A DNA stretch of 31,872 nt from Gammaproteobacteria bacterium (GTDB lineage: Bacteria > Pseudomonadota > Gammaproteobacteria > SZUA-229): contig JARFQK010000263.1 in NCBI GenBank assembly GCA_029287815.1, forward strand, positions 1 through 31,872. The letters run 5' to 3'. Below are positions 6,599-20,406 of the stretch, piece by piece. The notes under the pieces are model-generated. The model was not told the origin of the DNA and did not search any database. It saw only the letters and a list, made by a program, of their open reading frames with translations. The position numbers and the translations under genes were made by a program. How positions within the stretch are numbered: the stretch's first letter is position 1; every line of letters starts with the position of its first letter.

Positions 6599-6651
6599 AG
6601 CGAGGTTCTCCCGGTACAAAACGGATCGAGATTAGGCTATACTTCAATATG

Positions 6652-6750
6652 TTCTGAGGAGCGTTGCAGCCTGACCCTATCTACAAGCGGTCAGGTCAGG
6701 CTCAGAAAGCAATAACGGCGCTCATTTCTTAACACCGCTTAGGAGATGAG
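6652..6750 (+). ncRNA. SAH riboswitch with translational expression platform
   Basis: TCTGAGGAGCGTTGCAG...CAGGCTCAGA...AACGGCGCTCA matches SAH-riboswitch hallmarks (P1 CTGAG/CTCAG, pseudoknot GAGCG/CGCTC). CTCATTTCTT (6721-6730) can pair with AGGAGATGAG (6741-6750, the SD). Confidence 0.88.
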
Positions 6751-6752
6751 AT

Positions 6753-8174
6753 ATGAGTGCAGTTATCGAGAGTAACTTTTCCGATTACAAGGTCGCCGAC
6801 CTTTCCCTGGCCGAATGGGGCCGCAAAGAAATCACCATTGCCGAAACCGAAATGCCCGGGTTGATGGCACTGCGCGAAGAATACGCTGACCAAAAGCCAC
6901 TCCTGGGTGCCCGGATCACCGGCAGCCTGCACATGACCATTCAAACTGCCGTACTGATCGAATCCCTGGTGGCTCTGGGGGCGCAGGTGCGCTGGGCATC
7001 GTGCAACATCTATTCGACCCAGGATCATGCAGCGGCCGCGATCGCTGCACAAGGGATTCCGGTTTTCGCCTGGAAAGGCGAGACCATAGAGGAATATTGG
7101 TGGTGCACCGAACAGGCGCTGACGTGGCCAGACGGTGGTACACCGAACATGATTCTCGACGATGGTGGTGATGCCACGCTTCTGGTGCACAAGGGTGCGG
7201 AATTCGAGAAAACTGGCACCGTTCCGGAGGCCGAGGACGACGACAACGAGGAATGGAAAGCGATTTTGAACCTGCTCAGGCGCACGATCACCGACGGTTC
7301 TGACAAATGGCGTCGAATCGCTGACAGCATCAAAGGCGTCACCGAGGAAACAACGACCGGCGTACACCGTCTTTACCAAATGCAAGAGAGCGGTGATCTG
7401 CTGTTTCCAGCAATGAACGTCAACGACTCGGTCACCAAATCGAAGTTCGACAATCTCTACGGTTGCCGTGAATCACTCATCGACGGCATCAAGCGTGCAA
7501 CCGACGTGATGATTGCTGGGAAAATTTGCGTTGTACTGGGTTACGGCGACGTCGGCAAAGGGTGCGCACAGGCTTTTCGCGGAATGGGCGCGACCGTCTG
7601 GGTAACCGAGATCGATCCAATTTGTGCGCTGCAGGCAACGATGGAAGGGTATCGCGTCGTCGACATGGATCAGGTGGCCAGCCAAGGCGATATTTTTGTG
7701 ACCACGACCGGCAACATAAACGTGATCACTCACGATCATATGGCTGCGATGAAAAACGAGGCTATCGTATCCAACATCGGTCATTTCGACTCCGAAATTG
7801 ATATTGCGTCGCTGGAAAAGTACCAGTGGGAGGAAATCAAACCCCAGGTTGACCATGTGATCTTTCCTGACGGCAAACGTATTATCGTTCTCGCGAAGGG
7901 CCGCCTGGTCAACCTTGGTTGTGCTACCGGCCACCCGAGTTTCGTGATGTCGGCATCGTTCACCAATCAGATCATGGCTCAGATCGAGTTTTTCACCAAC
8001 GGTGATGAATACCAGAACAAGGTTTATGTATTGCCGAAAATTTTGGATGAGAAAGTCGCACGCCTGCACCTGAAGAAGATCGGCGCTTCACTGACAAAAC
8101 TGAGCCAGCAACAGGCTGAATACATCAATGTGCCGGCAGAAGGACCGTACAAGCCCGAGCATTACCGTTACTAA
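6753..8174 (+). CDS. ahcY: Adenosylhomocysteinase (with the ~40-aa insertion)
   Basis: [81 protein letters not shown]. Confidence 0.98.
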
Positions 8175-9923: not shown

Positions 9924-10261
9924 TGTTGCGTAATTCGCTGGTGAAATAAGCCGCATCGGTCGTGCGTACCATCCTAGCGATCGAATTCGCTAGACTGGCA
10001 TCGATACGTACGACGCAACATGCTCATTTTAGTTGATCCACAGATGAACACCGATAAACGCAGAGATTTTGTCAACGCTTAGCCCGCATTTCTCACCAGG
10101 CGGACGCATCATCCGTTGAATCGTTTAAAGGGCTACCGTGCGGTTACGGTTTGTCATATCTGGTTTTAGGAACACGCTGGCGTAGCAACAACAAAACATA
10201 CGCGTTAATCTGCGTTCATCCGCGGACAAAAAAAAAGAATCTACCAACGAATTGCGTAACA
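9924..10261. repeat. Nested inverted-repeat complex between convergent rsmE and chpC
   Basis: Outer IR 9924-9942 / 10243-10261 (16/19); inner IR 10037-10064 / 10199-10226 (21/28); central family A copy at 10080-10100; small hairpin CTAGCGA/TCGCTAG near 9974-9993. Confidence 0.7.
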
Positions 10262-10353: not shown

Positions 10354-10827
10354 TCATATTGCGGCCTGTAGCAGCATTTGCTCGATCGCTCTGATATCGA
10401 GAATTCCGGCTGCTGCTCCGTTGATTCTTACTTTCTTTGCGATCATTGGATGCTGCTCCGTGTCGTAATCGTCGGGTTTGACCTGGTCGCGAGAGAAAGT
10501 ACTGACATGGGGCACACCGTGCATCGCCAATCCGATGTACGGATACTCCGGCTCCTCGTCCTCGCTGGCCGAATAGATCACGGCGACCTGTGTGTTCAGA
10601 TTGACCGCTTGAGCCTGATCGCCAGCTGCAGCCTCATAGGAAACCACCGGCAACTCGACGCCACGCCAACGGGCTTTACCCAGCAGCCATCGCGGCGAGT
10701 TATCCGGTTGACGCACCTCCTGTACAGAGATAATCTCTGCGACCGCGGCGTTCGGAACCACCACCAGTTTGTTTTTCAGCGTCAGAATGATACTTTTTAT
10801 CAACCGATTGCTCTGTTCCACGATCAC
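10354..10827 (-). CDS. chpC: CheW-like coupling protein (ChpC type)
   Basis: VVPNAAVAEII, WLLGKARWRGVELPVVSYE; GTG start shares 1 nt with the chpA stop; typical last gene of Chp clusters. Confidence 0.85.
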   Translation of the reverse strand: MIVEQSNRLIKSIILTLKNKLVVVPNAAVAEIISVQEVRQPDNSPRWLLGKARWRGVELPVVSYEAAAGDQAQAVNLNTQVAVIYSASEDEEPEYPYIGLAMHGVPHVSTFSRDQVKPDDYDTEQHPMIAKKVRINGAAAGILDIRAIEQMLLQAAI

Positions 10828-13800
10828 TATGCCTGCAATATGTTATTGATATTTTTCAACAGTTCTTCTTCCTGATAAGGTTTGCCCAGATATTCGTTGA
10901 CGCCGATTTCCATCGCTTTTTCCTTGTGTTTTTCGCCCGTTCGGGACGTGATCATGATGATAGGAAGATCCTTCAGACGCTCGTCATTGCGGATGTACGA
11001 GGCCAGTTCAAAACCATCCATTCTGGGCATCTCGATATCCAGCAACATCAGATCCGGCTTGGTTTCGAGAAGCTGATTGGTCGCATCGATGCCATCTTTT
11101 GCGAGCAGAACAGTGATCCCATTTCGTTCGAGCATACGAGCGGTGACCTTGCGAATCGTGATCGAATCATCCACTACCATGATGGTTCTCTCTTCGGATT
11201 TCTGCTCAGCAACCGTTTCGACTTCCGCCTCGACCTGTTCCGCATCCCGGATCAGATTTTCGGTCACGACCAGGGCAGCCAGTTCAATGATCAACACCAC
11301 ACGGCCATCCGCGAGAATAGTCGCACCGGTAATACCTCTAACGCTGCCGAGCTGGTGACCGACCGGCTTGACGACGACTTCACGCCGGCCTACCAGCTCA
11401 TCGACGTGCAACGCATAATGGTAGTTACCAACCTGGGCAAGCAGCACCGGGAAAAGCCCGTAATATTCGCTGTAGTTAGGCCTCTGGCCGCTGAGCAGCT
11501 GTCCGAGGTGCTTCAGTTCATATTCAACGCCATTGAACGAGTAGCGTTGCTGGTCACTTTCGTAGAACCGCTGCAACTCGGCTCCGGTCACACGTACCAC
11601 GCCTTCGATACTCGCTAAAGGTATGGCGTAAATGTCCTCGGCTGCGCTCACCAGCAACGCCTGATTGATCGCCAGGGTCAGTGGTAGACGGATCGTGAAT
11701 TCGGTGCCTTTTCCCGGAAAAGTGTCGATTTCCAGCACGCCGCCGAGCTGTTTGAGTTCAGCATCGACGACGTCCATGCCGACACCGCGGCCAGCAACCT
11801 GGGATACCTTTTCCGCAGTACTAAACCCCGATTTGAGAATGAGCTGCAGAACCTCACGGTCACTGACTTTGCTGTCTGCATCGAGCAGGCCTTGCTGCAC
11901 CGCCTTCATGCGGATCGCGCCTGCATTGATGCCCGAGCCGTCGTCCTTGACCACCATCATGACGTCTCCACCCTGACGATCCACAACGATCGTGATTTTT
12001 CCAATTTCCGGTTTTCCTGCCGCGATTCGCTTGTCCGGCGCTTCGATGCCATGCGCGACCGCGTTGCGCAACATGTGCTCCAAGGGTGCAACGATTCGAT
12101 CCAGAATGGTACGGTCCAGCTCATTGCTGTCGCCGATGATTTCAAGTTCGACTTCTTTGCCCAGTTCCCGCGCAGTCTGGCGAATGATTCTGCGCAGACG
12201 CGTTGATAGCCCACCAAAACGCACCATGCGTGTGCGCATCAGGCCTTCCTGCAATTCCGTGCTGACACGCGACTCCTGCAACAGCAAGGTTTCAGAATCA
12301 CGCACAATTTCACTCAGAATCTCTCGGATACTCTCGACGTCGCCGGCTGTCTCGGTCAGACTTCGGGAAAGCTGCTGCATGGTCGAGTATCGGTCCATTT
12401 CCAATGGATCGAAGTCTTCATCATACTGGTTGGATTCCTTCTCGAACGAAGAGCGAATCTGTATTTCGGTTTCAATTTCCAGATTTCGCAGCTGTTGTTT
12501 CAGACGCACGACGGTCGATTCGAGTTCGTTCAGGTTGAAGCCTATGTCGCTCATCTGTTTGCCCATGCGAGCATGGTAGATATTGACCTCACCAGCGGAG
12601 TTGACGAGCTCGTTGAGCAGGTCTGCACGGACCCGAATCTGATCCTGGGCATCACGATAATTGGTGTCCGTCGCGCGCTCGCCCCATTGCGGCCTGTCGA
12701 TTTTGTCGGTCGCGCGACGACCCAGGTTAGGCCCAGGCTGATCTGACTTGGATTGCTCGATAACGCCCGGGGGTGCCTCTTTCGAACCTACCTGGTCGTT
12801 GGCCGCCGGCTCCTTGAGATCATCGAGCTCGAGGTCATAGCGTTCGATCGAACGCTTCTCGAGTACCCGTCCGCTCATCAATGCTTCGACCTGAGCGATG
12901 ATGTCACTCGCAGTATCGACCGGCGCCCGGTCTTTCACGTTTTTCAGCATCTCTGCGAGGCGGTCCACCGAAGCATTCAGCGTATCGAACAGCAGCCTGT
13001 TGGCCTCGACCTGTTTGTCTGCCACCTTGATGACGAGAGATTCAAGCAGGTGAGTCAGATCACCGACAGGCGCGAGTTCCGCCATACGCGCACCGCCCTT
13101 CAGGGTGTGCATATAGCGCTGCAATTGGTGAGTGCTCTCCTCATCATCAGGATTGCCAGTCAATTTCTGCAGCAGTTCTTCACAATTTTCGATCAGCTCG
13201 TCGGCTTCTTCGATAAAGATATCAATCAGATCGCTGTCAATATCACCATACGCAATCTCTGTTGTCGTGCGGACCGCTAACTCGGCAACGGGCTCGACGA
13301 CAGGCTCTTCAACCGGGGCCTCAACAGGCATTTCGGCACCATCGGTCGGCGGTTCCAGATCCACAGCGTCTGCAGCCACTGATTCGAACGCTTCGACAGC
13401 AGACGCGTCCGCTGCTTGATCATGATCCTGCTGAATTTCCGGTTCACTTTGGACACCACTTTCGTGCGAGGAGTGTTGCAACTGATGCTGCAACTCGATC
13501 TGCACTGCCCTGTTGATACGCTCCGCTAGTGCTTTGTCCGCAGCAGGCATCTGCCCCGACTTGATCTGCTCCAGCATCGAGCGGACGGTTTGCGCAACCT
13601 CCTCAAACAGCTGCACGACCGCGTCATCGATGGATAAATCCCGGCCTTCCTGCCTGATCTTTATGTATTTCTCGACTGCTCCACACAGTTCTGCGATTTG
13701 ATCAATTTCAGCCGTGCGTGCGCTGCCATAAAGCGTGTGAAACGCACGCACCAGATCCTTGCTGGCAGTCAGCGGCTGGGCGTTCTCTTTATGAGCGGTG

Positions 13801-16688
13801 AGTAATTCGTTGACGAGCTGCAGGTGCCCGATGCTCTCATCGTAGTAAATCTGGAACAACACCGGATCCATGCCCGCAGCAAGTTCATTGATGTCCGTTT
13901 TCGCCGCTTGCGCTTGTTGTTCGTCGATTTCAAAGGCCCACCCGTCCGCCAGTGCCGAATCGTCGAACTGCAAGCCATCGTCCTGATTAATCTCAACAGT
14001 ATCAACCGATTCTGCGGGCAATGGCCGGGCGGCATGGACACCATCATCGCCGGCCTCTGAGAGCTCAGCTGCTGTATGTGAGCTTGGCTGTTCAGCTTCA
14101 AATTCATCAAGATCTGGCCAACCGGCGTCGGGTTCATCGGCAGCGGGTTCGGTGTCTTCAACGCTGAACTCTTGATCGGCCGCGCGTTCCGCTTGATCGA
14201 GCGCGGCATTGGCCACCGCCAGGCTCTGCTCAACCGCGGTTGCAGCCGTACCCTGATCATCGTCAGCTTGGTCTGAGGCGGTCGCGCTGACAGGATGCGC
14301 GGCGAAATCGCCGGTTTCAGCGCCCTCAGGCAAATTATTCAGTTTTTTTTTGACCGTATCCTCGTTGGCTGCTGGAGGCGGCTTGCCTTCAGCCAGCGCG
14401 TGCGCGGTTGCCATCAAACGCGGAACCCTTGCGATCGGCTCGCGATTGCCCTGCAATTGTTCGATCAGTTGTGGCAGCACGGCCACAGCATCGTCGAGCG
14501 CACCAAACACCCTGGTGTCGGCTTCGATCTTCTTGTCAATCACGCGGTTGAGCATGTTTTCGAATTTCCACGCAAACTCGCCGATCAACTGGGCGCCGAT
14601 CAAACGACCGCTACCCTTAAGCGTATGAAAGCATCGACGCACGACACTCAGCGCCTGTTCGTCGGAAGTATTCGACTTCCACAGCGGCAGGTTGGTACTC
14701 AGCTCTGCGAGGACTTCCTGGGCTTCTTCAACAAAGATCTCGAGTATCTCAGCATCTGCATCATCACCAAGAATGTCGAAGTCGTCATATTCAGAGCCTA
14801 CGGACTCTACCGCAGGTTCGGGTGTTTGTATTTCGGGCTCCGCCTTCTCCGGCTCGCTCTCCCTTAGCGGTTGTTTGAATTCAACGATGTCGGCTTCGTG
14901 CGCCGTCGTTTCTGCGGACGTCGCTTCAGCCTCGACCTCGACCTGTTGATCAGCCATCTCATTGGACGCCGGTGTCGCAGCCGATGAGGCGAATCGCTCA
15001 CACACTTCGCTCAACGATGACAGTGCGTTCTCGCCGGTTCGCAGACCCTCCTCGACACCGGGGCGACCGTCCAGCATCGCTTCAAAGAAATATTCGATCG
15101 AGGTGACGACATCGGCAATCTTGTCCTGCTCCTGAACGTCAGGCTGGTGACCATTATCCAGCAATGCGACCTTGACATAGTGCTTCAACTTCGCCAGCAT
15201 GGTCTCGACCTGGGCCATCGACAGCATCATCGAAACGCCTCTGGTTTCTTCCAGCAGGTTCAGAACAGTCTGCAACGACTCTTGCTGAGCGTGACCGCTG
15301 ATGAATGACAAGATCGCATCTTTCGCATCAGTGAAGTTTTGCAATCCCTGACCCAGCGTCGTAGTCAGCACCTCGCGATACTCAGCAGCTGGCACCACCC
15401 GGTCTTCATCATCAGCCAGATCAGGAGCGCCGGTGCGCTTCGCCACGTAATTGTCGAGATCGGCCTCGGCGGACAACAATTCACCCGCTATGGTGAAGAC
15501 AAGCTCTTCGTCTGCCTCGGTGTTTTGCTCAGTGATGCTCTGGATCCTGTCCTTTTGTTCGAGCACTTTTTGCCTTGCTTCACCCAGACCCAGCATACCG
15601 TAAGTATCGCCTATTTTGACCAGTTGCTCGGTCAGTGGCGCGAGTTCCGCGACATTACGGTCACTGCTGTGAATGAACAACTCGAGGGCATCCTTGACCT
15701 GTGACAGATCCTCCTTGATTCCCTGGGATACGGTTGCAAACAGTTCGGCGTTCAGACCACCGACCGTCGATTCGGCCTGCTCCTGGGTCGAGCTGAGCAG
15801 TTCATTGAGGTTATAGATCTCTCTAACCCTACTGATGCGCTCCCCGGACGATTCGCTATGGGCGATGTAGTAGAGAGCGTTCTTCAGGAGTTCCTGCGAA
15901 TAACGGGTCGCAAAATCCTCCTCACCACAATCGATCACCAGCTTGATCTGGCGGTCCGCATGACCCAGCAACATCTTCACGCTAACGCCAGCGTCAATGC
16001 CATCGTCGCCCAAGCCCTCGAGCAGGGCTGCAATCACGGACCAGTAACGCCGGACAGACTGCTCGGCCGAAGCCTTGTGCAGCGCCACGATCACGGCGAG
16101 CATACGTTTTACGCCGGCATGTTTCTTGTCGTTTTTGAGCAGATCGAGCAAGCCAAGCTGAAAATGCATACGCAGCCGCTTCGCCTGGCCCTTGAGCTTA
16201 CCAGGTTCGATGACAGGTGCTTCAATCTCCTGCTCCTCGATCTCCGCTGCGTCCATATCCGGAAAGAAAAGCACGTTCTCTGACAGCAGGCTCTGTTTGC
16301 AAACGGCTCGCATGTCGTTCATCAATGGCAACAGGGCCATTGGCGTGTCTTTTTTGCCCGCCTGCAAACCCTCGAGATAGTCCGGCAGCTGCAGCAACGC
16401 CCGCATCAGCACATCGTAGGCGTCTTCTCTGCTCTCTGCCTGGCCCTCGAGTATCGCTCTGGCGGTATTCTCCATTTCCTCGGCAAGCATGGCCGCACCA
16501 AAAATCTCGACCATCTGCAAGGTACCGTAGACCAGACGCAATCCCTCGATGCAATCATGCATCAGACCTTCGTCATCGTTGTGCTCGATGTATTCTGACA
16601 AAGACGACTGCGCATCATTGATCACGGCGTCCAGCTGCGACTTGACCCAGCTCAGAGAGTTGTATTCTATCGTTCCGCTAGCCTTCAT
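10827..16688 (-). CDS. chpA: Pil-Chp hybrid histidine kinase (degenerate N-terminal Hpt region, three His-Hpt domains, CheA kinase, CheW, receiver)
   Basis: N-terminal EYNSLSWVK; HTLKGSG, HTLYGSA, HTLKGGA; EHMLRNAVAHGIE, DDGSGI, GFSTA..GRGVGMDVV; CheW domain; receiver VDDS..DIEMPRMDG..KPY. Confidence 0.95.
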   Translation of the reverse strand: MKASGTIEYNSLSWVKSQLDAVINDAQSSLSEYIEHNDDEGLMHDCIEGLRLVYGTLQMVEIFGAAMLAEEMENTARAILEGQAESREDAYDVLMRALLQLPDYLEGLQAGKKDTPMALLPLMNDMRAVCKQSLLSENVLFFPDMDAAEIEEQEIEAPVIEPGKLKGQAKRLRMHFQLGLLDLLKNDKKHAGVKRMLAVIVALHKASAEQSVRRYWSVIAALLEGLGDDGIDAGVSVKMLLGHADRQIKLVIDCGEEDFATRYSQELLKNALYYIAHSESSGERISRVREIYNLNELLSSTQEQAESTVGGLNAELFATVSQGIKEDLSQVKDALELFIHSSDRNVAELAPLTEQLVKIGDTYGMLGLGEARQKVLEQKDRIQSITEQNTEADEELVFTIAGELLSAEADLDNYVAKRTGAPDLADDEDRVVPAAEYREVLTTTLGQGLQNFTDAKDAILSFISGHAQQESLQTVLNLLEETRGVSMMLSMAQVETMLAKLKHYVKVALLDNGHQPDVQEQDKIADVVTSIEYFFEAMLDGRPGVEEGLRTGENALSSLSEVCERFASSAATPASNEMADQQVEVEAEATSAETTAHEADIVEFKQPLRESEPEKAEPEIQTPEPAVESVGSEYDDFDILGDDADAEILEIFVEEAQEVLAELSTNLPLWKSNTSDEQALSVVRRCFHTLKGSGRLIGAQLIGEFAWKFENMLNRVIDKKIEADTRVFGALDDAVAVLPQLIEQLQGNREPIARVPRLMATAHALAEGKPPPAANEDTVKKKLNNLPEGAETGDFAAHPVSATASDQADDDQGTAATAVEQSLAVANAALDQAERAADQEFSVEDTEPAADEPDAGWPDLDEFEAEQPSSHTAAELSEAGDDGVHAARPLPAESVDTVEINQDDGLQFDDSALADGWAFEIDEQQAQAAKTDINELAAGMDPVLFQIYYDESIGHLQLVNELLTAHKENAQPLTASKDLVRAFHTLYGSARTAEIDQIAELCGAVEKYIKIRQEGRDLSIDDAVVQLFEEVAQTVRSMLEQIKSGQMPAADKALAERINRAVQIELQHQLQHSSHESGVQSEPEIQQDHDQAADASAVEAFESVAADAVDLEPPTDGAEMPVEAPVEEPVVEPVAELAVRTTTEIAYGDIDSDLIDIFIEEADELIENCEELLQKLTGNPDDEESTHQLQRYMHTLKGGARMAELAPVGDLTHLLESLVIKVADKQVEANRLLFDTLNASVDRLAEMLKNVKDRAPVDTASDIIAQVEALMSGRVLEKRSIERYDLELDDLKEPAANDQVGSKEAPPGVIEQSKSDQPGPNLGRRATDKIDRPQWGERATDTNYRDAQDQIRVRADLLNELVNSAGEVNIYHARMGKQMSDIGFNLNELESTVVRLKQQLRNLEIETEIQIRSSFEKESNQYDEDFDPLEMDRYSTMQQLSRSLTETAGDVESIREILSEIVRDSETLLLQESRVSTELQEGLMRTRMVRFGGLSTRLRRIIRQTARELGKEVELEIIGDSNELDRTILDRIVAPLEHMLRNAVAHGIEAPDKRIAAGKPEIGKITIVVDRQGGDVMMVVKDDGSGINAGAIRMKAVQQGLLDADSKVSDREVLQLILKSGFSTAEKVSQVAGRGVGMDVVDAELKQLGGVLEIDTFPGKGTEFTIRLPLTLAINQALLVSAAEDIYAIPLASIEGVVRVTGAELQRFYESDQQRYSFNGVEYELKHLGQLLSGQRPNYSEYYGLFPVLLAQVGNYHYALHVDELVGRREVVVKPVGHQLGSVRGITGATILADGRVVLIIELAALVVTENLIRDAEQVEAEVETVAEQKSEERTIMVVDDSITIRKVTARMLERNGITVLLAKDGIDATNQLLETKPDLMLLDIEMPRMDGFELASYIRNDERLKDLPIIMITSRTGEKHKEKAMEIGVNEYLGKPYQEEELLKNINNILQA

Positions 16689-16738
16689 TTACAGCCTACC
16701 CAACTTGAATTGCCTTCTGGTTCAAACTCTTTGGTCAA

Positions 16739-18811
16739 CTAGCTATCGAGAACCACGGTCTCAAGCTTACCCGACTCTGTCGCCGGGAGCTTGAATCCGG
16801 ATACCGAACGTTGCAGCTCGTTGGCCAGTTCATTCAAGGAGTTCAGGGACGAAGAAGTCTCTTCAGTGCCCTCCGACGTCCTCAACGTAATCTCCTGAAT
16901 GACGTTCATGGTCTTGGAAACATCACTGGCGATTGTGGACTGTTTCTTTGCGGATTCTGAAATACCTTGAATAAGATTAGCCAGATTCGTTGACACTGTT
17001 TCAATTTCTCGCAGTGCCTCGCCAGCGTCCTCGGCCCGCTTGGCACCGTTGACCACACCAGCCGTACTCACTTCCATGGATGTGATGGCTTCGCTGGTGT
17101 CCGCCTGAATCGTATTGACCAGTGTCTCGATCTGCTTGGTCGCATTACCTGCGCGCTCAGCCAACCGCTGAACCTCATCCGCCACAACCGCGAAGCCACG
17201 GCCTGCATCACCGGCAGTCGAAGCCTGAATGGCCGCATTCAGCGCGAGAATATTGGTCTGATCGGCAATTTCAGTGATAAGCCCGACGATATCGCCGATC
17301 TCCTGTGAGGATTCCCCCAGACGTTTGATGCGTTTCGACGTCTCCTGAATGGTTTCGCGTATTGCCTCCATGCTGGTGATAGTTTCACGCACCACACCGG
17401 CACCCTTCTGCGCAATTTCCATCGATTGAAGCGCAACCTCTGCTGATTCGGCGGCCTCTTTGGTCACATTCTGCATTGAATCAGCCATATCGGTAATCGC
17501 CGCACTGGCAGAAGCAATCTCTCGGGCCTGGTGATTACTCGCCTCCGCGAGTGACAACGCGGTGCCCTGCGCGTGCGAGGTTGACGTCGTCACTTCGGTC
17601 GAGGTATTGTTGATCGTGGTCACCAGCGAACGCAGCGCATCGATCGCAAAATTCACAGAATCAGCTATTGCACCTGTAATTTCCTCGGTGACCGTTGTGT
17701 GTACGGTCAAATCACCATCTGCCAGATTCGCCATTTCGTCGAGCAGCCTGAGAATCGCACGCTGATTCCGACGGTTGTTTTCCAGCGCTTGCTCCTCTCT
17801 TGCTTTCGCATCACGCAACATCAAAAAGCCACCAATGACGATCAGCACGACAGCCAGCACACCGAAGCCGACACCAACGAGCTGAATGATATCGAGAATC
17901 TTTGTCTGGCCCGAAATCGCGCTCCTGAATGTCTCGAGATCGCCCAGCAAGTTCGCGCTACCGGTCGTAACCTGACTGGCGGCATCCTTGACTTCGAAGA
18001 GTTCAGGCGAAAGTTCGAGAATTCCGGCGATGTTATCGCTGACCGCGCTGATCAGCATGGCTACCTCGCGCAGCTTGGCAATGGCTTCTTTATCAGTCAC
18101 TTTCTCGATCCGCAAAGAATCCGAGCCTTTCAGCAATCCCTCGAGCACCCTGCCAAAAAGCGCTGCATCACGACCAAAACGGTCAGCTGCTGCAGCCGCT
18201 TGTTCACCGCCAGCAAGCACCTGGTTGAGGTTGTTCTTGATGCGTTGCGACAGCATCATCTGGCGGCTAGCCAGATAGATTTGTCGCGACGAGCCTTTCT
18301 TTTTCATCAACACACCGACCACTTCGTCAGAAAAGGTCAACAGCTGGGGAATGAAGCTGTCGATAACGGTGTACAGCTCACGCACTTCTGAGATCGACTT
18401 TCTACCGTTGATGATGATCGAAACGTCGTTATTGAAATTGCGCCAGGCCACTTCAACACGCTCCAATGGTGTTATCAGTTCCTGATGCAGCTGGGGTATC
18501 CCGCTCAGGCTGTTACCCGTGCGGTAGACGTCGAGAATTTCCTCGAAACGTCCGCGGCTCGCGATCAACGCTGTGAAGTCCGACTCCTTGCCGGACGATG
18601 CGCCCAAGGCCTGCGTGGCCATGCTCTGCGACAACAATCGCAGTTCGGAAGCCATTTCGACATGCTGCTGCTGGTTGGCACGTTTGTTACCCACGTACAA
18701 GAGACTTCCCAACATCACAAAAATCGATATGAACAGTGTAATGCCCAAAAGCAGCAACGGTTTGCTGACCGATCGCACTTGAGATGATGTTTTTTTCTTC
18801 TTAGCGCTCAT
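16739..18811 (-). CDS. pilJ: Pil-Chp methyl-accepting chemoreceptor
   Basis: Two TM segments around PilJ-type periplasmic domains, [55 protein letters not shown]. Confidence 0.95.
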
Positions 18812-18875
18812 ACCCTTATTTCTCCGAATAACTGCTCCACCTGTTCGCCCGGCACTATTTTGTTCACAGTTAAAT

Positions 18876-19421
18876 TTAGAGTGACGCCTGCGCTAGACGC
18901 TCATCTTGCGTCATGCTTTGGAAACTGAAGACCGGCCAGCTATCGCCCTCCTGATTGAAAGCCATGGCGACATATTTGGAGACATTCTCGTGGACAGCCG
19001 GTATCTGACTGGTCTGCTCCTTGTTCAAGAAATGCTTCATGCCGTAAACCTCTTCGACGACTACACCGGTATTGAAACCTTTGTAGTTGATCACGATGAC
19101 TTTTCCGTTTTTCCTCTGCTTGAGGTCCTCGCCAAGAATAAAGCCCTTCAAATCCATCAATGGCAACAAACCACCACGAACGTTGGCAACGCCCACCATC
19201 CATGATTTCACGCCGGGCACGTAGGTAAACTCCGGTAATTCAAGGATTTCCTCGATCTCGGACATCGGTGCAATCAGCTTGTCATCACCAAGCTTGAAGC
19301 CAATACCCACCCACTCGTCCTCGGTTTCATCCAATGTCGGCAAGCCTGCTGCATTTGCCTGACAACGCTGCTCAAGATCCAGCAAAAAATCAAACGGGTG
19401 GTTGATATCCATTGCAGTCAT
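18876..19421 (-). CDS. pilI: CheW-like protein
   Basis: [43 protein letters not shown]. Start uncertain (19427, 19421 or 19412). Confidence 0.9.
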
Positions 19422-19436
19422 GATCAAGTTTACAAA

Positions 19437-19802
19437 TTATCCGGACAACACCATGTTCACGTGTTCGATCAGGCCTTTCTCCTGAATCGGCTTGACGAGA
19501 TAATCCCGTGCACCCTGACGTTTGGCCCACACCTTGTCGGTTTCCTGATCCTTGGTGGTCACTATGATGACCGGAATGTTCGCGGTCTGTGACTGCTTGC
19601 TGAGCTGGCGCGTCGCCTGGAAGCCATTCATGCCCGGCATGACCACATCCATCAGCACCAGATCAGGCATGTTAGCCTGCGCTTTTTCGACGCCAGCCTC
19701 ACCAGAGTTCGCAACCAGAACCTGATGACCGTGCTTCTCGAGAATTTTCTGCAGTACATGCAGCTCCGTTGGAGAATCATCAACTATCAATATCTTCGCC
19801 AT
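19437..19802 (-). CDS. pilH: CheY-like response regulator
   Basis: KILIVDDSPTE, PDLVLMDVVMPGMNGFQATR, TTKDQETDKVW..RQGA..YLVKP. Confidence 0.95.
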   Translation of the reverse strand: MAKILIVDDSPTELHVLQKILEKHGHQVLVANSGEAGVEKAQANMPDLVLMDVVMPGMNGFQATRQLSKQSQTANIPVIIVTTKDQETDKVWAKRQGARDYLVKPIQEKGLIEHVNMVLSG

Positions 19803-19846
19803 CACCCACTCACTATCATCAACTGTGCCGTATTACGCCCGCATCG

Positions 19847-20260
19847 TTAACCGACCGAGGCGTGCTCTTTAATCGCGCCGATCAGGTCTTCCTTGGTAAA
19901 CGGCTTGGTCAAGTACTGCGTTGAGCCAACGATTCTGCCGCGCGCACGGTCGAAAATACTGTCCTTACTGGAGAGCATTATCACCGGGGTTTCACTGAAA
20001 GCCTTATTGTTCTTGATCAATGCACACGTCTGATAGCCATCCAAACGCGGCATCATGATGTCAACAAAGATTATATTTGGCTTGGTTTCAGCGATTTTTG
20101 ATAACGCCTCAAAACCGTCAACGGCCGTAACCACTTCACAGCCCTCTTTCTTCAGGAGGTTTTCGGCTGTTCGACGGATCGTCTTGCTGTCGTCGATGAC
20201 CATCACTTTGAGGTCACTTAACTCAGCAACTTGTCCTGCCATTGCTGCACCATCATTCAT
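19847..20260 (-). CDS. pilG: CheY-like response regulator
   Basis: KVMVIDDSKTIRRTAE, IFVDIMMPRLDGYQTCALIKNN, LSSKDSIFDRARGRIVGS..YLTKPF. Start uncertain (20302, 20260 or 20242). Confidence 0.95.
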   Translation of the reverse strand: MNDGAAMAGQVAELSDLKVMVIDDSKTIRRTAENLLKKEGCEVVTAVDGFEALSKIAETKPNIIFVDIMMPRLDGYQTCALIKNNKAFSETPVIMLSSKDSIFDRARGRIVGSTQYLTKPFTKEDLIGAIKEHASVG

Positions 20261-20406
20261 TATTAGCCCTAGAGAGGTGGATATATCCAGAATGTAGACC
20301 ATGATATTTGTATTCGCAATGAATCTTCGGCGATAAGACTTTGAATTGTGTGTGAACAGAAATTCATTTACATTTGTCTGGTCGATAACCAGGCCGCAGA
20401 AAACAG

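What the first reader, a model, noticed from the sequence alone, without database searches (positions are those of the whole stretch)
14343..16688. The predicted short ChpA isoform would be a FimL-like scaffold carrying one phosphorylatable Hpt
Seen: residues ~1-560 contain helical Hpt-like repeats without the HTLKG histidine (LRLVYGTLQMVE, LVKIGDTYGMLG, LEETRGVSMMLS). One canonical Hpt follows (His688, CFHTLKGSG), ending just before the A9 site. Established: P. aeruginosa FimL is a separate protein homologous to the ChpA N-terminus that links Pil-Chp to PilG/FimV. Inference: this lineage could generate its FimL equivalent, or a free Hpt phosphate sink, from chpA itself at a ratio set by recoding. 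No fimL is present in this window, but it could lie elsewhere.
Basis: inference. Interest (0 to 1): 0.65.

Follow-up and report, generated by a model that had tools for sequence, protein, structure and literature searches.

The report
Slippery chpA gene making FimL-like protein
In a genus of marine-sediment bacteria that has no separate fimL gene, the pilus-control kinase gene chpA always keeps a 'slippery' run of adenines just after its FimL-like front part, so one gene probably makes both the kinase and a short scaffold protein; this is inferred from sequence conservation and has not been measured.

Summary
Observation confirmed. Residues 5-560 are a FimL-type domain (19-26% identical to stand-alone FimLs) with three His-less Hpt-like bundles; His688 is a canonical Hpt; the A9 (K780-782) has stops in both shifted frames.

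New here: every chpA of the genus with both linkers readable (21/21) keeps a slippery site. Sixteen carry a dnaX-type A_AAA_AAG right behind the FimL domain, predicting a ~590-aa, Hpt-free, FimL-sized product. One clade gained the A9 after Hpt1; its basal member has both sites, and the rest (this genome included) lost the first. Lys runs at the two sites are slippery-coded 23/23, against 1/26 elsewhere in the same genes, although 4-fold sites differ by up to 65%.

No stand-alone fimL was found in 97 family genomes (control: 5/5 Pseudomonadales). But 65 of 102 family genes lack both sites, so the proposed anticorrelation is only one-sided. Stand-alone FimL+Hpt genes (757 and 742 aa) exist in other lineages.

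Verdict: selected recoding is likely (~0.7), a FimL role is plausible (~0.4), and the Hpt looks incidental. There is no RNA or protein evidence. The scan noted this A9 earlier on this window; I found no note of it on other DNA and no paper.

The parts
10827..16688 (-). chpA, 1953-aa hybrid CheA-like kinase (FimL domain, three His-Hpt, dimerisation, HATPase, CheW, receiver)
15009..16676 (-). FimL-type domain, residues 5-560, with three Hpt-like bundles lacking the His (motifs at residues 50, 356, 479)
14931..14939 (-). Decayed ancestral slippery site 1: GAG GTC GAG (E584-E586) where sister species have xxA AAA AAG
14439..14753 (-). First canonical Hpt, residues about 646-750; His688 codon at 14627-14625
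14359..14363 (-). SD-like GAGGA upstream of the A9; not conserved in the other A9 species
14343..14351 (-). A9 slippery run (site 2), K780-K782, kept at the same codon in five species
14339..14341 (-). TGA reached if one A is lost (782-aa product)
14335..14337 (-). TAA reached if one A is gained or after a -1 shift (784-aa product)
16739..18811 (-). pilJ (MCP), directly upstream; no pilK between pilJ and chpA
18876..19427 (-). pilI (CheW)
19437..19805 (-). pilH (receiver)
19847..20302 (-). pilG (receiver), expected partner of a FimL-like product
10354..10827 (-). chpC (CheW), directly downstream; no chpB between

Best explanation
chpA in this genus is a dnaX/copA-type two-product gene. SHOWN: an A-rich slippery sequence is held by selection in the acidic linker behind the FimL domain. 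Ancestrally it is A_AAA_AAG with an upstream GAGG and a -1 stop about 6 codons on. In this genome's clade it is an A9 placed one domain later. INFERRED: a share of transcripts or ribosomes slips there (RNA-polymerase slippage on A9, as in Thermus dnaX, and/or a -1 ribosomal shift; -1 shifting at A_AAA_AAG in the sister species) and stops within a few codons. That releases an N-terminal protein of 782-784 aa (86 kDa) here and about 590 aa in most of the genus, beside full-length ChpA. INFERRED, weaker: this product serves as the lineage's FimL, a kinase-free polar scaffold for PilG/FimV made at a fixed ratio to ChpA. The attached Hpt in this clade is a tolerated passenger that might relay phosphate in trans to PilG. 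Odds: recoding selected ~0.7; product acts as FimL ~0.4 overall.
For: Site 2 sits at the identical codon in five species whose flanks match at only 2-11 of 30 residues and whose 4-fold sites differ by 49-64% in all pairs but one. Conserved Lys columns elsewhere are all-AAA in 6 of 40, so three in a row is about 0.3%. Lys is 0.4% of the rest of that linker. At site 1, 16/16 runs read A_AAA_AAG although the preceding residue changes (E, V, A, K, L), and the Glu three codons before is GAG in 14/14 against 44% in the linker. Elsewhere in the same genes 1 of 26 Lys runs is slippery. Tree: site 1 is ancestral, site 2 arose in a 99%-supported clade, the basal member has both, and site 1 was lost only where site 2 exists. 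No fimL in 97 family genomes; the same profile finds it in 5/5 Pseudomonadales. A stand-alone 757-aa FimL+His-Hpt gene in three assemblies aligns to residues 7-769, in a genome with a separate full chpA. In another family a 742/743-aa FimL+Hpt ORF ends at a true stop, and the kinase ORF is joined only by a shift at an A10, in two assemblies 88% identical. Precedents: dnaX (PMC5009743; PMC3711429) and copA (PMC9548414).
Against: There is no RNA, ribosome or protein evidence; four contig sets, one of them RNA, show no indel at the A9 (contigs hide minor forms). There is no conserved 3' stimulator at site 1 and no significant fold after the A9. The GAGG is 7 nt from the heptamer, shorter than the ~10 nt I recall for dnaX. 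Eight of ten sister genomes and this one have tRNA-Lys(CUU), expected to weaken A_AAA_AAG shifting. Most of the family (65/102 genes) and class have neither site nor fimL, so a free FimL is dispensable in relatives. Species are related, so the counts overstate independence. The genome is 85% complete.
Confidence: 0.45

Rival explanations
1. Recoding is real but only lowers the dose of full-length kinase (or leaves an unstable by-product); the fragment has no FimL role.
For: The site moved by about 200 codons without loss, so exact product length is not critical. A third A-run cluster lies after Hpt3 in other genera. Most relatives need no free FimL.
Against: Both sites fall just outside folded domains, never inside, which leaves intact modules. 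The same two architectures exist as real stand-alone genes. Dose could be set more cheaply at initiation (inference).
Confidence: 0.17
2. No recoding: a short lysine patch is selected at the protein level (for example a protease site or a basic contact in an acidic linker), and its codons are inherited by descent.
For: A basic pair follows Hpt3 in the whole family (KR or KK). The species are related. No transcript variant was seen. Proteolysis is a known third route to the short DnaX.
Against: Protein selection does not fix synonymous positions: 23/23 slippery against 1/26; the A before the Lys pair survives several amino-acid changes; AAA AAA AAA is avoided genome-wide, 2/77.
Confidence: 0.18
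3. The fragment's purpose is the free Hpt, as a phosphate sink or trans-acting donor for PilG/PilH.
For: His688 is canonical. In P. aeruginosa Hpt2 and Hpt3 are loaded from the ChpA receiver and are the main donors to PilG/PilH (PMC5812489); His688 matches Hpt2 by position (my inference). FimL+Hpt stand-alone genes keep the His. Site-2-like A-runs recur in other genera.
Against: Sixteen genus genes have a site before the Hpt and would release no His-Hpt. Site 2 is the derived state.
Confidence: 0.12
4. The A9 is a DNA-level phase-variation switch that turns full-length ChpA on and off in a subpopulation.
For: Poly-A runs slip in replication, and pilus genes are often phase variable (PMC3711429). 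Both shifted frames stop.
Against: Every copy has exactly nine A (six genes; contigs of X1, X2 and X4). The ancestral site has only 6-7 A in a fixed reading phase, which points to translation. The frameshifted family copies I checked are not at A-runs.
Confidence: 0.08

Closest known systems
E. coli dnaX (-1 shift at A_AAA_AAG) and Thermus thermophilus dnaX (transcriptional slippage at A9)
   Same: The same two motifs, used in different lineages of one gene to cut an N-terminal isoform from an intact ORF; stops follow closely (PMC5009743; PMC3711429).
   Different: A signalling kinase, not a replisome gene. The two sites lie at different domain borders. There is no conserved 3' hairpin. dnaX of this genus has no slippery site in the three genomes read. 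Not shown by experiment.
E. coli copA giving a short N-terminal product by frameshifting (Meydan 2017, as cited in PMC9548414)
   Same: An N-terminal module that other bacteria encode as a separate gene is released from a longer gene by recoding (frameshift confirmed; the separate-gene point is from my own knowledge).
   Different: Different motif and protein family; the product here is 590-780 aa, far larger; no ribosome-profiling support.
Pseudomonas aeruginosa and Acinetobacter baylyi FimL
   Same: Homologous to the first ~563 residues of ChpA, with no His at the Hpt-like sites (PMC3019171). Partners PilG and FimV are present here.
   Different: FimL is a separate, diverged gene (about 20-26% identical). 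The predicted product is an exact copy of ChpA's own N-terminus and, in this clade, carries a His-Hpt.
E. coli CheA-short (own knowledge, not checked here)
   Same: A second isoform from a CheA-family gene.
   Different: It arises by internal initiation and keeps the kinase while losing the His; the product here keeps the N-terminus and loses the kinase.

Membership tests
FimL | Full-length homology to the ~560-aa FimL fold (FimL_2nd + FimL_C) | tested here: met
FimL | Hpt-like repeats without the phospho-accepting His | tested here: met
   residues 1-560 have no H-x-x-K-G type motif
FimL | Free protein of about 560 aa from its own gene, with no canonical Hpt | tested here: not met
   part of chpA; the predicted product is 782-784 aa with His688. 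Sister-species product of about 590 aa would meet the size
FimL | Binds PilG and FimV, polar localisation | not testable with these tools
   needs experiment; see Tried and rejected for the one modelling job
dnaX-type -1 ribosomal frameshift | In-phase A_AAA_AAG heptamer | tested here: not met
   the window has A_AAA_AAA within the A9; A_AAA_AAG is met in 16 sister genes at site 1
dnaX-type -1 ribosomal frameshift | Conserved upstream SD-like stimulator | tested here: inconclusive
   GAGG 7 nt upstream in 14/16 site-1 genes; at the A9 only in this species
dnaX-type -1 ribosomal frameshift | Conserved 3' stem-loop | tested here: not met
   no consensus fold or covariation above shuffles; single hairpins with z of -2.5 or lower in 6 of 14 core site-1 genes
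Programmed transcriptional slippage (Thermus dnaX type) | Run of 9 or more A/T in an intact ORF with nearby stops in both other frames | tested here: met
Programmed transcriptional slippage (Thermus dnaX type) | Run conserved beyond protein need | tested here: met
Programmed transcriptional slippage (Thermus dnaX type) | mRNA length heterogeneity at the run | tested here: inconclusive
   only assembled contigs were available; no indel seen
ChpA (Pil-Chp kinase) | Multiple Hpt + HATPase + CheW + receiver in a pilGHIJ-chpA-chpC cluster | tested here: met

The most novel reading that the evidence does not exclude
ChpA kinases of several Gammaproteobacterial lineages use recoding at A-runs placed at domain borders to issue their N-terminal modules as free proteins. 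This replaces the separate fimL gene of Pseudomonadales. The cut point can move between borders (FimL alone, or FimL+Hpt), and in one lineage the logic is reversed so that the kinase itself needs the shift.
Probability: 0.35. Interest if true: 0.85.

Novelty: new variant of a known kind. Interest (0 to 1): 0.7.

Why it matters
Productive recoding in ordinary chromosomal bacterial genes is known from only a handful of cases (prfB, dnaX, copA, cso2 and a few more). I found no report of it in a chemosensory kinase. If true, it adds a signalling gene to that list and shows an evolutionary hand-over from one slippery site to another, with an intermediate species holding both. It also bears on an open question in pilus biology: why FimL duplicates the ChpA N-terminus and how FimL-less lineages manage (PMC10519157). 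Short cassettes make it directly testable in a reporter.

Tried and rejected
Complex prediction of the FimL domain with PilG gave no verdict (score 0.19, mark 0.32) and is not used either way.

Reads laid on 13400-15400 were contigs only and show no indel at the A9; the RNA contig covers the run with fewer than 31 flanking bases on one side, so it does not formally bridge it.

The idea that the switch to A9 followed gain of tRNA-Lys(CUU) is rejected: the tRNA is in site-1 and site-2 species alike.

A conserved 3' stimulator was not found. No promoter-like match lies in 13500-17000, and no terminator-like match lies on the coding strand near the A9.

dnaX could not calibrate the mechanism: it was not found in this assembly and has no slippery site in three sister genomes.

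Apparent free FimL proteins among close homologues were contig-end fragments or errors. P0003 (609 aa) lacks a short stretch that its 1908-aa cluster mate has. The G085 frameshift is not at an A-run. One short family ORF (G014, 587 aa) was not checked for a contig end.

Nearby stops are weak evidence on their own: a -1 stop within 10 codons occurs at 120 of 165 linker positions, though stops within 3 codons in both frames occur at only 1 of 165.

PF26379 was not in the searchable library. The primary papers of Silversmith 2016, Inclan 2016, Leech 2006 and Meydan 2017 were not held, so they are cited through reviews. P. aeruginosa FimL itself was not available; Pseudomonadales FimLs were used instead.
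Full report
Observation. The window holds a gshB-divergent pilG-pilH-pilI-pilJ-chpA-chpC cluster. chpA is an intact 1953-aa ORF at 16688-10827. The A9 at 14343-14351 codes K780-K782. One A fewer gives 782 aa and one more gives 784 aa, both about 86 kDa. Close relatives are uncultured marine-sediment Gammaproteobacteria, some labelled Thiotrichales.

Is the N-terminus FimL? Yes, by homology. A 31-row profile matches residues 5-560. Homologues carry Pfam FimL_2nd and FimL_C there. Stand-alone FimL-sized proteins of Marinobacter, Bacterioplanes, Halioxenophilus, Moraxella and others align at 19-26% identity over nearly their whole length. The model is all helical, with parts that superpose on CheA P1 (E-values not significant). 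This much is ordinary: P. aeruginosa FimL is known to match the first 563 residues of ChpA (PMC3019171).

Is there a separate fimL? Not in this assembly (six-frame profile search, next hit E 0.15; 85% complete). None was seen in 97 family genomes, 44 of them high quality, where the only full matches are the chpA N-termini. The same profile finds a second, stand-alone gene in 5 of 5 Pseudomonadales. Across the class, one genome per family, only about 3 of 70 positive genomes show a stand-alone copy beside chpA. So lacking fimL is the normal state. FimV is present in this genome.

Is the A9 more than chance? The genome has ten A/T runs of 9 or more, and 2 of 77 KKK are AAA AAA AAA. The A9 is at the same codon in five species (G000 with L104, G001, G009, L105, L106). 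Their flanks are mostly unalignable, and their 4-fold sites differ by 49-64% in all pairs but one. Other conserved Lys columns are AAA in all four full-length species in 6 of 40 cases, which gives about 0.3% for three in a row. Lys is 0.4% of the remaining linker. Contigs from three DNA runs of near relatives also keep the run without an indel.

The main new result. Mapping A-rich heptamers along 105 family genes gave peaks in the linker after the FimL domain and after Hpt1. Sixteen genus genes carry an in-phase A_AAA_AAG about 25-45 codons past the FimL domain. Fourteen have GAGG 7 nt upstream and a -1 stop 5-7 codons later, predicting about 590 aa with no His-Hpt. The A before the Lys pair survives changes of that residue among E, V, A, K and L, and the Glu three codons earlier is GAG in 14/14 against 44% in the linker. 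In these same genes Lys runs are slippery-coded 16/16 at site 1, 7/7 at site 2 and 1/26 elsewhere (rows are related, so the Fisher values overstate). On the tree site 1 is ancestral in the genus. The A9 marks a 99%-supported clade whose basal member L105 has both sites; the five rows that lost site 1, this genome among them, all have site 2. In the window the old site reads GAG GTC GAG at 14939-14931. All 21 genus genes with both linkers readable have at least one site.

Outside the genus the signal is patchy. 65 of 102 family genes have neither site. Site-2-zone Lys runs in other genera are slippery in 9 of 14 against 48 of 260 elsewhere. A third cluster follows Hpt3 in A+T-richer genera, where a basic pair is also conserved in the protein. 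Outside the family 3 of about 74 chpA loci have such a heptamer in the 330 codons after the FimL domain, two of them at positions equivalent to site 1 and site 2. I saw none in the named Pseudomonadales loci, five of which were shown to have fimL.

Would the product be viable? Two lineages encode the same architecture as real ORFs. G236 has a stand-alone 757-aa FimL+His-Hpt gene outside the chp cluster, seen in three assemblies. It aligns to residues 7-769 (31%), and the genome has a separate full chpA. G057 and a Logan contig 88% identical to it both split chpA into three pieces: a 742/743-aa FimL+Hpt ORF, a 141-aa Hpt ORF ending in an A10, and a kinase frame that starts in -1 at that run with no ATG at the junction. 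G058 has a 556-aa FimL-only ORF followed by the kinase gene.

Mechanism. The two motifs are those of dnaX: A_AAA_AAG for -1 ribosomal shifting in E. coli, and nine A for polymerase slippage in Thermus. For this window I favour slippage on A9, perhaps with -1 shifting, because no 3' structure is significant and the SD-like word is not shared by the other A9 species. For site 1 a -1 shift is favoured, but no consensus hairpin was found, and tRNA-Lys(CUU), which should dampen it, is present in most of the genus. Efficiency may therefore be modest. In P. aeruginosa, FimL and ChpA both recruit PilG to the pole (PMC10519157), and Hpt2/3 are loaded from the ChpA receiver and feed PilG/PilH (PMC5812489). 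A kinase-free copy of the N-terminus would most simply act as FimL. Since the ancestral product has no Hpt, the Hpt of this clade looks incidental, though it could relay phosphate in trans. These functional steps are inference.

Novelty and verdict. The FimL homology is known, and the recoding types are known. Their use in chpA, and the hand-over between sites, were not found in the searched literature or in scan notes on other DNA. New variant of a known kind. Selected recoding about 0.7, FimL role about 0.4, interest 0.7. Nothing here shows the isoform directly.

Noticed in passing
L043 (G057:C3, minus strand) and L294:3445-8871: chpA in three pieces in two assemblies 88% identical: FimL+Hpt ORF (742/743 aa), a 141-aa Hpt ORF ending in an A10, and the kinase frame in -1 at that run. 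This is a candidate obligatory frameshift in another family.
   Followed up: partly
L233:939-3212 (G236), L290-L292: Stand-alone 757-aa FimL+His-Hpt gene outside the chp cluster, 40% identical to the N-terminus of the genome's own full chpA.
   Followed up: yes
L053:1257-2927 (G058): chpA split into a 556-aa FimL-only ORF and, about 360 nt later, a 1211-aa kinase ORF starting at the first Hpt.
   Followed up: partly
L026, L056, L057, L072, L023, L078, L021, L186, L188, L027, L028 (about 25-30 codons after Hpt3): A third cluster of A8/A9/A_AAA_AAG in other genera of the family; could be a further recoding site or a conserved basic pair in A+T-rich genes.
   Followed up: partly
L201 (G261) and L248 (G268): A8 with A_AAA_AAG at His+91, and A9 at 37 codons after the FimL domain, in two unrelated families; positions match site 2 and site 1.
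   Followed up: no
window 14931-14945; L104; L012: Where site 1 decayed, short repeats expanded: GTCGAG x2 here and x5 in L104; a 9-nt VDE repeat in G001.
   Followed up: no
window 6650-6730: SAH riboswitch (RF01057, 60.6 bits) upstream of the 473-aa ORF at 6753.
   Followed up: no
window 10354-20302: Pil-Chp cluster has no pilK or chpB between pilJ, chpA and chpC; not searched elsewhere in the genome.
   Followed up: no
G000 C104 and C124: Two other long ORFs hold an A9, both near codon 44; conservation not checked.
   Followed up: no
window 10228-10236: A second A9 in the window, between ORFs.
   Followed up: no
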